Below are positions 3,717-39,588 of a DNA stretch of 64,000 nt, one piece after another. Origin of the DNA: the human T2T-CHM13v2.0 reference genome, Homo sapiens; NCBI RefSeq assembly GCF_009914755.1, contig NC_060935.1, one strand, 5' to 3'. Within the stretch, counting starts at the first letter, position 1; each line of letters opens with the position of its first letter. A program made the translations under genes and the position numbers. Below the pieces are notes generated by a model. That model was not told the origin of the DNA, did not search any database, and was given only the letters and a program-made list of their open reading frames with translations.

Positions 3717-5287
3717 AGGCTCAGGACTTTTAAATCAGACAGATTGGGTTCTGAGTGGTAATGACCTTAGGCAATATCTTCATTTCTTAGTCCGTTAGTG
3801 GGTAATTCCACGTATTTCCTGGTGTTGCTCCTAAAGGAGACAAAATACCTGAAGTCTTATTACACATACTAGCTAAGAGTGCCAACTCAGTAAACTAATT
3901 ATTACTTTATTCTTGGCTACTGAATAAAGTGTTCCTGTTTTTCAAGATCACCCGCTACTCCCCTTCAAACCGTTTCATCCCATCTAGGGCCTTGCTACAT
4001 AAAATATCCTTCATAATTTATATCATCTAAGTCTCCTCAAGATGAAAAACACACTAAATACGTCCTGTCTTCAAAACAACCAGCACAACATTCTACATGT
4101 GTCAGGCCCTGCCTCAAGTCCAAATCTCATCTACCCTCCCCCGACAAGCCTATTTTCTGAAGGAGCATTATCTCTACTTGTTCTGTAGCCCAGGGCTATC
4201 TCACTTATATCTGAGCACTAGAAAGAAACTGTTCTGGTAAACAAAACTCCTAATTCTTCACATGCTGGAACTCTCTACTGAATTCAAGTTTTGATCAATC
4301 TCTGCTTCTTGAAGAAAACTTTTTGGATCCTTTGCTTCAGTGAAACCAACATTTGAGTTCTCTTGTTTATGGGAGAGTCCCTCTTCATTACTTACCCTAA
4401 ATTTAGAGTCTATTAGGCAAATATTCTGACTTTTAATTCTCTTTCTACATGTTCTCCTGCTGACTCAAATCTGATTTTGAAATGAGGTGGGTTATAAACA
4501 TATAAGGAGTAGATGCAAGCTTTTTCTCCCACTCATCTGATGGCTTCATCGTGCACCTGTAGGTACCGATGCCACTGAAATCTAAATTTCTATCCAAGGC
4601 TTCTTCTCCAAGCCTCAGAGTTGAATATATAAACAGCATTAGGAAACTTTTCTTTTGTATATCTCAAGTTGAATTTGGCAAAAGTAGAACTTCCTACTTT
4701 GCCTCAATTATCTATTTTGGTTAGTTGCAAGACTTAAGGTGCAATCACCCTATTTAGAAACCAGGGAATCATCATGGACCTGGACCTTCCTTCATCCAAT
4801 TGATCATGAAGTTTTAACAAGATTATTTCCTAAATGTTTCTGAGACCTATTCTCTTTTCCATCACTAGGTCATGGTAGACTCTAACTTCTAGTTCAAGTC
4901 CAAGGAACCCCTCTCATCACTCCATTTGCAGAGGAAAAACAATTCAAATATGAGCTGTCCAAGGATGCACAGCAATCGGCTTGTAGTTATAGGGGTAGGG
5001 CTTATTGAAAGAGGCTAAGCAAAAATACACTGAGAATAAATGCTGTTTTTTTTTTCCTTTGTCCACTTTTGTATGGGGTAATCATTTCTTTCTTTTTAGA
5101 ATGGTAAGCTCTAGAGGATAAATATTTGGATGAAGGCCATAGGAAGAGGGGCCACAGAGGCCTGTTTAATAGAGACTTCAGGTCTGAGATACAAATGAGT
5201 CCTCCCAGCTCACAGTTGGTAGCTCAGTTCATGACATTATCTAGAGTTTGCACCAACATTCAGCTAGTATTAAAAACTTTGCTCACA

Positions 5288-5555
5288 ACTATTGCAAGGA
5301 CAGAAAACCAAACACCACATGTTCTCACTCATAGGTGGGAATTGAACAATGAGAACACTTAGACACAGGGTGGGGAACATCACACACCGGGGCCTGTCTT
5401 GGGGTGGGGAGATGGGGGAGGGATAGCATTAGGAGAAATACCCAGTGTAAATGATGAGTTAATGGGTGCAGCAAACAAACACGGCACAGGTATACATATG
5501 TAACAAACCTGCACGTTGTGCGCATGTGCCCTGGAACTTAATGTAAGAAAAAAAA
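5288..5555 (+). mobile_element. L1PA 3'-end fragment (mirror at ~38908-39175, - strand)
   Basis: L1 3' UTR 'gttctcactcataggtgggaattgaacaatgagaacac...aaacctgcacgttgtg' followed by an A-tail. Confidence 0.9.
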
Positions 5556-6344
5556 ATAATTCTGCTCAGGAGGAACATCTCTGTGTATCTTCTTGCTGAG
5601 CCTGTGGTGGTAATAGGTAACAGGCAGCTACTTGAGCTCCTGGAGTTCTTAGATGCGGGCATCTCTTTTTCAGAAGATGCAACCAATATTTTCTAACAGG
5701 ACCTGGAGAATCATTTTATTTTAAAATCCCTCATAGTTCCAATGTTTAGATCACCTGTGGTTCTGTCGCTATTTTTTTCCACATTTTTTTTTAGTTATTT
5801 GGTAGTTTCTTGGCATGCTTGGTGTGTGAGTGTGAATGGATAGTGATTTTATATGAAAAAATTAGAGACTGTTCTCTGAAACTGTTACGTTTCTCTAGAA
5901 AGAATTCAGGCAGATAAGTGTACTGGCAGATCTTGATCCATCTAAGAGGACGCTTAACTTTTGCTAGTGCTAGCGTTGATCTTTTTCTGGGTTGTCCTTA
6001 CTCCTAGAGTACAGCCCTTCTAGTGTTTCAAAGCTTCCTAGTGTTTCAGTGTTTATTTACAAGGGTTGCTCTACCTCCTCAGGCCCTGACCTCCAGCCTC
6101 TGACTCCCCAGCACCATCAGACTGCTAGTCTTTGCATAACTGTTTAGCTTCACAGCTGCTGCTTTCAATTCAGGTGCTGAGAATCTTGCCCTGAACATGC
6201 ACAGTTTAGGAATTGGCAAACTCCTCAAGGGGAATCGGGACGCTGAACTTTGGCCCAGTTTTCTCTAAGGCTGCCTCTTCTATCTCAGGTCTCAGACTCC
6301 ATGGTATCCCTGAACTGCAACTTCTTTATTCCTAGCCTGCTGGG

Positions 6345-37667: not shown

Positions 37668-38115
37668 TGTCAGGCCTCTGAGCCCAAGCTAAGCCATCAT
37701 ATCCCCTGTGACCTGCATGAATACATCCAGAGGGCCTGAAGCAACTGAAGAATCACAAAAGAAGTGATATTTAAATGGCCTGTTCCTGCCTTAACTGATG
37801 ACATTCCACCACAAAAGAAAAGAAAATGGCCTGTCCTTGCCTTAACTGATGACATTACTTTGTGAAATTCCTTCTCCTGGCTCATCCTGGCTCAAAAACT
37901 CCCCCACTGAGCAACTTGTGACCCCCCACTCCTGCCCACCAGAGAAGAACCCCCTTTTTCCTTTACCTACCCAAATCTTATAAAACGGCCAGACCCCTAT
38001 CTCCCTTTGCTGACACTCTTTTCGGACTCAGCCTGCCTGCACCCAGGTGAAATAACCAGCCTTGTTGCTCACGCAAAGCCTGTTTGGTGGTCTCTTCACA
38101 TGGACGCGAGTGAAA
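37668..38115 (+). mobile_element. Solo LTR7 (HERV-H)
   Basis: TGTCAGGCC...GAGTGAAA with perfect 5-bp TSD CTCAG (37663-37667, 38116-38120); same insertion site as the left-arm provirus. Confidence 0.96.
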
Positions 38116-39588
38116 CTCAGCAGGCTAGGAATAAAGAAGTTGCAGTTCAGGGATACCATGGAGTCTGAGACCTGAGATAGAAGAGGCAGCCTTAGAGAAA
38201 ATTGGGCCAAAATTCAGCGTGCTGATTCCCCTTGAGGAGTTTGCCAATTCCTTAGCTGTGCATGTTCAGGGCAAGATTCTCAGCACCTGAATGGAAAGCA
38301 GCAGCTGTGAAGCTAAACAGTTATGCAAAGACTAGCAGTCTGATGGTGCTGGGGAGTCAGAGGCTGGAGGTCAGGGCCTGAGGAGGTAGAGCAACCCTTG
38401 TAAATAAACACTGAAACACTAGGAAGCTTTGAAACACTAGAAGGGCTGTACTCTAGGAGTAAGGACAACCCAGAAAAAGATCAACGCTAGCACTAGCAAA
38501 AGTTAAGCGTCCTCTCAGATGGATCAAGATCTGCCAGTACCCTTATCTGCCTGAATTCTTTCTAGAGAAACGTAACAGTTTCAGAGAACAGAGTCTCTAA
38601 TTTTTTCATATAAAATCACTATCCATTCACACTCACACACCAAGCATGCCAAGAAACTACCAAATAAGTAAAAAAAAAAAAAGTGGAAAAAAATAGCGAC
38701 AGAACCACAGGTGATCTAAACATTGGAACTATGAGGGATTTTAAAATAAAATGATTCTCCAGGTCCTGTTAGAAAATATTGGTTGCATCTTCTGAAAAAG
38801 AGATGCCCGCATCTAAGAACTCCAGGAGCTCAAGTAGCTGCCTGTTACCTATTACCACCACAGGCTCAGCAAGAAGATACACAGAGATGTTCCTCCTGAG
38901 CAGAATTATTTTTTTTTCTTACATTAAGTTCTAGGGCACATGCGCACAACGTGCAGGTTTGTTACATATGTATACCTGTGCCGTGTTTGTTTACTGCACC
39001 CATTAACTCATCATTTACACTGGGTATTTCTCCTAATGCTATCCCTCTCCCATCCCCCCACCCCACGACAGGCCCCAGTGTGTGATGTTCCCCACCCTGT
39101 GTCCAAGTGTTCTCATTGTTCAATTCCCACCTATGAGTGAGAACATGTGGTGTTTGGTTTTCTGTCCTTGCAATAGTTGTGAGCAAAGTCTTTAATACTA
39201 GCTGAATGTTGGTGCAAACTCTAGGTAATGTCATGAACTGAGCTACCAACTGTGAGCTGGGAGGACTCATTTGTATCTCAGACCTGAAGTCTCTATTAAA
39301 CAGGCCTCTGTGGCCCCTTTTCCTATGGCCTTCATCCAAATATTTATCCTCTAGAGCTTACCATTCTAAAAAGAAAGAAATGATTACCCCATACAAAAGT
39401 GGACAAAGGAAAAAAAAAACAGCATTTATTCTCAGTATATTTTTGCTTAGCCTCTTTCAATAAGCCCTATCCGTATAACTACAAGCCGATTGCTGTGCAT
39501 CCTTGGACAGCTCATATTTGAATTGTTTTTCCTCTGCAAATGGAGTGATGAGAGGGGTTCCTTGGACTTGAACTAGAAGTTAGAGTCT

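What the first reader, a model, noticed from the sequence alone, without database searches (positions are those of the whole stretch)
4877..39588. Large palindrome carrying two convergent intact SSU72-like retrogenes
Seen: ~11.25-kb homologous arms at high identity around a ~6.6-kb centre, each with one full-length phosphatase ORF, tail-to-tail. Known: such palindromes support arm-to-arm gene conversion and inversion of the spacer, best described on sex chromosomes for germline genes. Inference: an ampliconic system maintaining extra Pol II CTD phosphatase copies, probably inversion-polymorphic.
Basis: partly seen in the sequence, partly recalled or inferred. Interest (0 to 1): 0.7.

Follow-up and report, generated by a model that had tools for sequence, protein, structure and literature searches.

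The report
DUX4-driven embryonic SSU72 retrogene cluster
The mirror repeat is real, but it is one fold of a six-gene cluster of intact copies of the RNA polymerase II phosphatase SSU72, most with DUX4 binding motifs and all listed in a published table of genes switched on in 4- to 8-cell human embryos, so they likely supply a burst of this enzyme when the embryo's genome first wakes up.

Summary
The inverted repeat is real: 11,253/11,250-bp arms, 6,634-bp spacer, two intact 194-aa SSU72L genes tail-to-tail. It is not a sex-chromosome-type palindrome: arms are 98.25% identical (criterion 99%), the left arm carries an extra 5.6-kb provirus, and a third, direct copy 96 kb away is as close. It is one fold of a 148-kb cluster with three tail-to-tail gene pairs. 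Homogenisation is real but centred on the gene body: the two ancient gene types differ 15-18% upstream, 1% in the transcript, 10-11% downstream. Six of seven SSU72L promoters carry two perfect DUX4 sites; the left-arm gene SSU72L5 has lost both. A published supplementary table lists all seven genes (7 of 42 rows) as DUX4-induced, 4-8-cell-peaking and off by morula. The family forms one clade across Boreoeutheria with catalytic residues kept. A Strand-seq table records an inversion plus probable common deletion at window 37,323-62,754, not at the spacer. Verdict: an unremarked DUX4/zygotic-genome-activation retrogene cluster of likely CTD phosphatases; enzyme activity and function untested.

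The parts
4877..21704 (+). Left arm (a1), 11,253 homologous bp plus 5,575 bp of provirus; a third, direct copy (a3) lies at window-equivalent 101,316-118,319
6345..12366 (-). Broken LTR provirus in the left arm: LTRs 6345-6791 and 11919-12366 (28 of 447 bases differ), 5-bp target-site duplication (one base changed on one side), Gag p30 remnant at 9896-10186; HERV-H-like by recall only; same insertion in a3
19324..19444 (+). Distal copy of the promoter module (81% identical to the proximal one); in L5 the distal DUX4 site (about 19426-19436) is degenerate
20047..20211 (+). Proximal promoter module of SSU72L5: DUX4-like sites 20100-20110 and 20150-20160 (one mismatch each), TATA box 20206-20211
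20337..20921 (+). SSU72L5 ORF, 194 aa, intronless; A-type upstream, beta-type spacer end (recombinant); poly(A) signal at 21317
21705..28338 (.). Spacer S1, 6,634 bp, inverted relative to its two copies S2 and S3; its ends are an older 86% inverted repeat (21515-22408 / 27433-28338)
24180..25150 (+). SVA-like element (CCCTCT hexamers, Alu-like part, VNTR; ends approximate), present at the same site in all three spacers
   Evidence: three SVA_B copies named in PMC13732488
28339..39588 (-). Right arm (a2), 11,250 bp
29114..29698 (-). SSU72L2 ORF, 194 aa, intronless
29925..29935 (-). Perfect DUX4 consensus site, 237 bases upstream of the L2 ATG
30598..30608 (-). Perfect DUX4 site of the most active (CT) flavour, 910 bases upstream of the L2 ATG
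37668..38115 (+). Solo LTR with perfect 5-bp target-site duplication; follows the 5' LTR at 18 of 21 diagnostic sites
39585..39588 (.). a|b duplication junction with 4-bp microhomology; the same junction recurs, reversed, at window-equivalent 101,316-101,319
39585..64000 (+). Block b1 (runs on to 67,153 and SSU72P6): left arm of a second, larger inverted repeat (about 27.5 kb, 98-98.5%) with two further copies
37323..62754 (.). Interval catalogued as a polymorphic inversion (chr11:4,315,323-4,340,754): 3 of 44 samples heterozygous inverted, 20 of 44 with non-simple codes, 21 of 44 reference
   Evidence: PMC10150506 Table S1

Best explanation
The inverted repeat is one fold of a 148-kb cluster of six intact, intronless SSU72L genes whose gene bodies are far more alike than their flanks, likely through gene conversion, and which are likely switched on together by DUX4 at the 4-8-cell stage to supply a predicted burst of RNA polymerase II CTD phosphatase during embryonic genome activation. 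Steps. (1) Shown: intronless copies of the five-exon chr1 SSU72 form one clade across primates, tree shrew and Laurasiatheria; inferred: one old retroposition next to a homeobox-site promoter. (2) Shown: two gene types (A, B) with flanks 10-18% apart; inferred: an old inverted duplication made the tail-to-tail pair a-gene-spacer-gene-b. (3) Shown: three copies of each block about 2% apart, sharing a provirus and an SVA; inferred: great-ape-age tandem amplification, then two inversions (a spacer flip between the paired genes, giving the reciprocal hybrids L5 and P6, then a flip of the block between the now inverted spacers) produced the present mirror. The palindrome is thus a by-product. (4) Shown: DUX4 consensus sites and a TATA box; published table: DUX4-induced, 4-8-cell peak, off at morula; inferred: direct DUX4 activation. 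(5) Shown: CX5RS motif, Asp143 and C-terminal strand kept, dN/dS 0.28; inferred, untested: active Ser5/Ser7 CTD phosphatase working with symplekin in termination and polymerase recycling.
For: Cluster map; all six chr11 ORFs and the chr7 ORF intact. A- vs B-type divergence by zone: 14.7-18.1% upstream, 4.6-5.5% promoter, 0.9-1.0% CDS (2-3 synonymous differences in about 124 sites), 1.0-1.2% 3' UTR, 9.8-11.3% spacer end; the chr7 copy groups with B upstream (bootstrap 100) but is the long outlier in the transcript tree. Site patterns among the three a copies are clustered (124 runs vs 162 expected, 0 of 10,000 shuffles); the longest identical run between arms, 544 bp, covers the CDS (P 0.005). 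Two perfect DUX4 sites in 6 of 7 promoters; the only 2 perfect sites in the 64-kb window lie upstream of L2; consensus and best flavour from PMC4730607. SSU72P2-P8 are 7 of 42 rows in the PMC11735616 table of genes with a DUX4 site near the start, DUX4 values 6.2-7.7, HSV-1 3.0-4.1, 8-cell +1.2 to +4.8, morula -0.9 to -3.5. Clade of 56 of 85 sequences, support 0.997-1.0; C12 in 51, R18 in 50, D143 in 51 of 53 motif-picked members. L5 vs chr7: 12 non-synonymous/459 vs 11 synonymous/123, Fisher P 0.003.
Against: No phosphatase assay, protein detection or loss-of-function for any human SSU72L was found. Copies are 99% alike, so short reads cannot assign expression to a copy: L5 lacks both perfect sites here yet 'SSU72P5' shows the same induction. 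Two perfect sites in the whole window is not itself above chance (16 of 100 shuffles); the argument is their position and retention across A, B and chr7 types. Oocyte values are also positive in that table (as they are for ZSCAN4). The four held supplements of the 8CLC paper PMC8901440 contain no SSU72. Five of 44 samples appear homozygous for loss of the neighbouring block, if I read the codes rightly, so full dosage looks dispensable. No rodent sequence fell in the clade. Family-wide changes near the active site (S13 to M/V, Q16 to V/M/I, K43 to R, N144 to T, H145 to L) may alter substrate choice. The order of rearrangements rests on one haplotype.
Confidence: 0.62

Rival explanations
1. One reading: a germline palindrome like those of X and Y, in which arm-to-arm conversion keeps two extra phosphatase copies and the 6.6-kb spacer toggles in the population.
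For: Arms exceed 8 kb and carry genes; L5 and L2 differ at 1 of 585 CDS bases, share alleles against the other four copies at 2 CDS sites and have three identical runs of 431-544 bp; S1 is inverted relative to S2 and S3.
Against: 98.25% identity, below the 99% criterion; the direct copy a3 is as close to a1 as a2 is and shares the full provirus; the strongest homogenisation crosses A and B types and is confined to the gene; no catalogued spacer inversion among 16 chr11 rows; expression evidence points to 4-8-cell embryos. Testis expression was not examined.
Confidence: 0.1
2. The genes are DUX4-responsive and translated, but the protein is a re-tuned paralogue (other substrates such as cohesin SA2 in cleavage divisions, or a competitor of SSU72 on symplekin) rather than extra CTD phosphatase.
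For: 56 of 194 residues differ from a mammalian parental-type SSU72, with family-wide fixed changes in and near the phosphate loop; long stem branch of the clade; SSU72 has a cohesin role and Ser19 is kept.
Against: C12, R18, S19, D143 and the C-terminal strand are kept; nothing found tests substrates.
Confidence: 0.15
3. Passenger amplicon: DUX4-driven transcription without a needed protein; ORFs stay open because conversion spreads an intact template.
For: Long annotated as pseudogenes; probable common deletion including homozygotes; no rodent member found; among the six chr11 copies amino-acid changes are not depleted (small counts).
Against: dN/dS 0.28 against the chr7 copy (P 0.003) and 0.20 against the parent; catalytic residues kept in 50-51 of 53 family members across many orders; even the smaller predicted deletion alleles leave 2-4 chr11 genes plus chr7.
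Confidence: 0.11
4. Alternative history only: the mirror arose in one step from a two-unit tandem array by an inverted duplication with two template switches inside the gene bodies, with no spacer flip at any time.
For: Reproduces the block order and the hybrids L5 and P6 in a single event; L2 and L3 promoters group together (bootstrap 97).
Against: Predicts S1 closest to S3, but S2 and S3 differ by 0-0.8% over most of the spacer while S1 differs by mostly 1.5-3.8% (0.5-0.8% in three windows); later conversion could hide this.
Confidence: 0.3
5. Assembly artefact.
For: None.
Against: Arms differ at 163 of 9,318 sites plus a provirus/solo-LTR difference with its own target-site duplication; both genes have RefSeq transcripts (hub annotation).
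Confidence: 0.01

Closest known systems
DUX4-target multicopy gene clusters of human genome activation (ZSCAN4, PRAMEF, MBD3L2-5, RFPL4A, TRIM43/53, FRG2)
   Same: Clustered paralogues, DUX4 sites near the start, DUX4 and HSV-1 induction, 4-8-cell peak, off at morula; they share the same published table.
   Different: Encodes a paralogue of a core Pol II CTD phosphatase; I found no paper that discusses it as such.
Large X/Y palindromes (Jackson et al. 2021, PMC8327919)
   Same: Arms over 8 kb, a spacer, genes in the arms, conversion tracts.
   Different: Autosomal, 98.25% not 99% or more, each block in three copies, conversion focused on the gene and shared among six copies, embryonic rather than shown testis expression.
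SSU72 (chr1; PDB 3o2q, 3o2s)
   Same: 194 aa, same Pfam family, CX5RS motif, Asp140/Asp143, identical C-terminal HTVCFY.
   Different: About 71% identical, intronless, own TATA/DUX4 promoter, fixed substitutions near the active site.
Inversion call chr11:4,315,323-4,340,754 (Porubsky et al. 2023, Table S1)
   Same: Same cluster; shows that it is structurally polymorphic.
   Different: Covers the right arm's end and block b1, inside the 34 kb bracketed by the inverted gene-spacer-gene cassettes, not the spacer; Strand-seq only; could partly reflect reads from inverted paralogues.

Membership tests
Large sex-chromosome-type palindrome | Arms at least 8 kb | tested here: met
   11,253 and 11,250 bp; criterion from PMC8327919
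Large sex-chromosome-type palindrome | Arm-to-arm identity at least 99% | tested here: not met
   98.25% by substitutions, 97.9% and 97.0% by BLAST, plus a 5.6-kb difference
Large sex-chromosome-type palindrome | Arm-to-arm conversion makes the arms each other's closest relatives | tested here: inconclusive
   Tracts exist but a1-a2 188, a1-a3 168, a2-a3 200 differences of 10,775; no ape sequence available
Large sex-chromosome-type palindrome | Spacer inversion polymorphism | tested here: inconclusive
   No row for the spacer among 16 chr11 rows; number-guess searches of a second catalogue found nothing; a paralogous 6.6-kb spacer is hard to call; a past flip is inferred under one of two histories
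Large sex-chromosome-type palindrome | Testis-biased expression | not tested
   No testis data seen; the data seen are embryonic
DUX4-target genome-activation gene cluster | DUX4 consensus near the start site | tested here: met
   Two perfect sites in 6 of 7 promoters; L5 has only one-mismatch sites
DUX4-target genome-activation gene cluster | Induced by DUX4; 4-8-cell peak; silent by morula | tested here: met
   Read from a published table, 7 of 42 rows; not copy-resolved; not re-analysed by me
DUX4-target genome-activation gene cluster | Direct DUX4 binding needed for induction | not testable with these tools
   Figure legend says listed genes have DUX4 binding sites near the start; no mutagenesis seen
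Ssu72 CTD phosphatase | Full-length Ssu72 domain with CX5RS motif | tested here: met
   Pfam 189 of 189 positions; motif named in PMC10830811; C12, R18, S19 kept
Ssu72 CTD phosphatase | Catalytic aspartate | tested here: met
   D143 kept in all 7 human copies; that D143 is the general acid is recalled, the two structure papers were not held
Ssu72 CTD phosphatase | Activity on pSer5/pSer7 CTD and symplekin binding | not testable with these tools
   No assay found
Functional retrogene | Intronless copy of an intron-containing parent | tested here: met
   Parent matches in 5 exons on contig C1, copies are contiguous
Functional retrogene | Intact ORF under purifying selection | tested here: met
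   dN/dS 0.28 vs chr7 copy, 0.20 vs parent
Functional retrogene | Poly(A) scar and target-site duplication; synteny across mammals | not tested
   Parent similarity spans only about 10 bases before the ATG to the stop; no other mammalian DNA was available

The most novel reading that the evidence does not exclude
SSU72L is an embryo-specific isoform of the Pol II CTD phosphatase, kept across Boreoeutheria, amplified again and again, and wired to DUX: it resets CTD phosphorylation and termination during genome activation, is re-awakened in FSHD muscle and herpesvirus infection, and varies in dose between people because deletions and an inversion between the gene cassettes remove or rearrange this very palindrome on about a quarter of haplotypes.
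Probability: 0.3. Interest if true: 0.78.

Novelty: new member of a known kind. Interest (0 to 1): 0.52.

Why it matters
As a palindrome it is an ordinary 98% segmental duplication. As a gene family it matters more: seven genes long filed as pseudogenes are among the most strongly DUX4-induced rows of a published table (six of the top eight), yet no paper found discusses them. They would give the embryo's first transcription wave a dedicated CTD phosphatase, make the question of how CTD phosphorylation and termination are set at genome activation directly testable in 8-cell-like cells, add candidate effectors downstream of DUX4 in FSHD, and sit in a locus with apparently common copy-number and inversion alleles. 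The natural promoter pair L2 (two perfect sites) versus L5 (none) is a ready-made test.

Tried and rejected
Spacer inversion in catalogues: PMC13629690 Table S1 was read only in part 1 of 43 and searched with 'chr11' and guessed GRCh38 numbers (offset from recall); no row for this locus appeared, which is weak evidence. A first search of PMC10150506 supplements failed on term format; the row was found (30 of 35 'chr11' places seen, including all 16 chr11 rows of Table S1). The Porubsky preprint's main text has no chr11 or SSU72 mention and no key to the numeric genotype codes. The 8CLC paper's four held supplements have no SSU72. An IQ-TREE protein tree timed out; FastTree was used, and support labels printed after re-rooting are shifted, corrected by split. 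78 of the 120 listed database proteins went into the tree; 42 (splice isoforms, fragments, most unnamed records) were left out, and 15 of 135 hits were not listed. Promoter as a transposon: only the seven loci match beyond the first 40 bases (the tool skips very common words). Pfam on 9 open stretches of the provirus: 1 hit. No structure or complex prediction was run, since solved human SSU72 is about 71% identical. Earlier scan findings were not available. The Han1 genome paper has no mention of the locus.
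Full report
Observation. The repeat is there. Self-BLAST pairs 11919-21704 with 38115-28339 (97.9%, 9,797 nt) and 4877-6791 with 39588-37668 (97.0%, 1,921 nt). Homologous arms are 11,253 and 11,250 bp, the spacer 6,634 bp, and the inner arms differ at 163 of 9,318 aligned bases. Each arm ends in a 194-aa ORF, tail-to-tail, differing at one base, with a full Pfam Ssu72 match. The left arm has 5,575 extra bases: a broken provirus with two LTRs 6.3% apart, a 5-bp target-site duplication and a Gag p30 remnant; the right arm has a solo LTR at the same site with a perfect duplication, following the 5' LTR at 18 of 21 diagnostic sites. The name HERV-H is recalled, from no call.

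The wider structure. The gene has 13 DNA matches in this genome: six on chr11, one on chr7, one on chrX and five exons of the chr1 parent. Tiling 120 kb around the window shows, in window coordinates: a1 L5> S- <L2 a2 | b1 P6> S+ <L4 b2 | a3 L3> S+ <L1 b3, from 4,877 to 152,523. Blocks a, b and S each occur three times at about 98%. The finding is the first fold; a larger fold (b1/b2, about 27.5 kb) starts at 39,585. The a|b junction has 4 bp of microhomology and occurs twice. All three spacers carry the same SVA-like insertion (three SVA_B copies in PMC13732488, passages), so the triplication postdates it; with the 2% divergence this suggests great-ape age (SVA age recalled).

Is it a conversion-maintained palindrome? 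By the criteria of PMC8327919 (passages: arms over 8 kb, identity over 99%) it fails on identity. Over 10,775 three-way aligned sites a1 differs from a2 at 188, from a3 at 168, and a2 from a3 at 200; a3, not a2, shares the full provirus. Exchange is nevertheless evident: site patterns are clustered (124 runs vs 162 expected; 0 of 10,000 shuffles) and heterogeneous along the arm (P 2e-6); the longest identical run between arms (544 bp, P 0.005) covers the CDS and three runs reach 430 bp (0 of 10,000). The clearest signal is gene-centred. Comparing unrecombined A-type (L2, L3) with B-type (L4, L1) copies: 14.7-18.1% upstream, 4.6-5.5% in the promoter, 0.9-1.0% in the CDS, 1.0-1.2% in the 3' UTR, 3.4-4.3% just downstream, 9.8-11.3% at the spacer ends. 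Selection on protein does not explain 2-3 synonymous differences in about 124 sites or 4-5 in 415 UTR bases (binomial P 0.001 and 2e-13 against 10%). The chr7 copy groups with B upstream (bootstrap 100) but stands apart from all six in the transcript: A and B gene bodies were homogenised after chr7 left. L5 (A upstream, beta spacer end) and P6 (B upstream, alpha end) are reciprocal hybrids. Two histories fit: three tandem units, a spacer flip between paired genes, then inversion between the inverted spacers; or one inverted duplication with template switches in the genes. S2 and S3 being near-identical while S1 differs leans to the first. Either way the mirror is a by-product.

Polymorphism. 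Table S1 of PMC10150506 (passages; supplement 2, 30 of 35 chr11 places seen) lists a passing Strand-seq inversion at chr11:4,315,323-4,340,754, window 37,323-62,754. Of 44 samples 21 are reference, 3 heterozygous inverted and 20 carry numeric codes. I read these from recall as copy-number states with leading zeros lost (8 '10', 6 '1000', 5 '0', 1 '1'), i.e. loss of the block on 25 of 88 haplotypes; the three trios fit Mendelian deletion, but I did not see the legend. The interval lies inside the 34 kb bracketed by the inverted gene-spacer-gene cassettes (19,267-30,767 and 64,752-76,190). Inversion there would turn the palindrome into direct repeats; deletion between L5 and P6 or a1 and a3 would remove its right arm (inference). 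Reads from inverted paralogues could mimic inversion. No row covers the spacer. A second catalogue (PMC13629690; part 1 of 43 read, four searches) gave no hit, weak evidence.

What the genes are. Upstream of each ATG lies a TATA box and a duplicated module with DUX4 motifs. Six of seven copies have perfect sites at -237 and at -873 to -911; all seven have a one-mismatch site at -187; L5 has lost both perfect sites; the chrX copy has none. The consensus and the most active flavour, which the distal site matches, are from PMC4730607 (passages). The region matches only the seven loci beyond its first 40 bases. This prediction was then checked: the supplementary table of PMC11735616 (whole file read; legend in passages; files 9 and 13 not searched) lists 42 genes with a DUX4 site near the start; SSU72P2-P8 are 7 of them, with DUX4 values 6.2-7.7 (six of the top eight; ZSCAN4 5.6), HSV-1 3.0-4.1, positive at 4- and 8-cell, negative at morula. 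P2 = L2 is stated in PMC12807706 (passage); the other P-to-L matches are by analogy. Against: expression is not copy-resolved, 'P5' is induced although L5 lacks perfect sites here, oocyte values are positive (also for ZSCAN4), and the four held supplements of PMC8901440 lack SSU72.

Protein family. A search gave 135 proteins at E 1e-60 or better, 120 listed; 78 plus the 7 human copies were treed. Fifty-six of 85 form one clade (support 0.997; 1.0 without Acomys) spanning primates, tree shrew, horses, rhinoceros, bats, carnivores and cetartiodactyls, with no rodent. Equus (5 of 5) and Eulemur (2 of 2) paralogues cluster by genus; hippopotamus paralogues (4) do not. Among 53 motif-picked members, not independent, C12 is kept in 51, R18 in 50, D143 in 51, F193 in 53. 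dN/dS is 0.28 against the chr7 copy (P 0.003) and 0.20 against the parent. Fixed changes near the active site leave substrate choice open. A sheep SSU72L3-like locus is differentially methylated in embryos, and SSU72 siRNA cut bovine blastocyst rate by 18% (PMC13398327, passages); which paralogue was hit is unclear from what I read.

Novelty. The genes are annotated, a 2024 review still calls such copies non-functional pseudogenes (PMC10830811, section 4), and the DUX4/8-cell and inversion rows sit unremarked in supplements. Searches for SSU72 with retrogene, 11p15.4, DUX4, genome activation, segmental duplication and for the gene symbols (listings and abstract starts only) found no study of the family; subscription papers, bioRxiv supplements and most gene tables were out of reach and may already say this. 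PMC8038829 (passages), PMC9997556 (passages) and the Porubsky preprint (passages) added little.

Verdict. Observation confirmed; interpretation partly supported. Ordinary as a palindrome, more interesting as a DUX4-wired, concertedly evolving, structurally polymorphic cluster of likely CTD phosphatases: a new member of a known kind. Interest 0.52.

Noticed in passing
L005 (window-equivalent 65,785-66,369): SSU72P6, annotated as a pseudogene, has an intact 194-aa ORF and two perfect DUX4 sites in this assembly.
   Followed up: partly
L008 (G000:C23, ORF starts 112,798,706): The chrX retrocopy also has an intact 194-aa ORF, 152 of 194 identical to a parental-type SSU72, but with the motif arginine changed (R18Q) and no DUX4 sites: an independent retrocopy, possibly a pseudophosphatase.
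   Followed up: partly
window 39,585-64,000 and L014-L017, L020-L022: A larger inverted repeat (b1/b2, about 27.5 kb, 98-98.5%) around spacer S2; b1 and b3 are 99.66% identical over 58,119-64,000, suggesting a recent long conversion tract.
   Followed up: partly
window 6345-12366 and 37668-38115: Provirus versus solo LTR at the same site in sister duplications; the solo LTR is a 5'/3' mosaic as expected from LTR-LTR recombination.
   Followed up: yes
L026-L028 (G000:C7 about 125,780,000-125,795,200): The chr7 gene is a 2.8-kb B-type cassette, promoter included, next to two inverted L1 pieces 96% alike: a DNA-level duplication, not a new retroposition.
   Followed up: partly
proteins P0043, P0044, P0052, P0056; P0036, P0050, P0055, P0059, P0060, P0065, P0087; P0054, P0063; P0083, P0095, P0096: SSU72-like proteins of colugo, marsupials, pangolins and deer fall outside the SSU72L clade and form their own groups, suggesting repeated independent retroposition and amplification of SSU72 in mammals.
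   Followed up: partly
window about 50,200-55,570 (+) and 39,586-47,700: A long L1 with fragmented ORF1/ORF2 frames, and older L1 pieces in opposite orientation; the a|b junction lies in such L1-like sequence.
   Followed up: no
window 15,700-19,260 vs 61,700-64,455: A/B homology continues upstream of the gene in pieces at 83-93%, so the old inverted duplication was larger than the 3.3-kb cassette.
   Followed up: no
proteins P0001-P0004: Human-like SSU72L proteins from contigs of about 1 kb (up to 318 member sequences), near the transcript's length, predicted with a 10-residue N-terminal extension; the frame is open for 236 codons.
   Followed up: no
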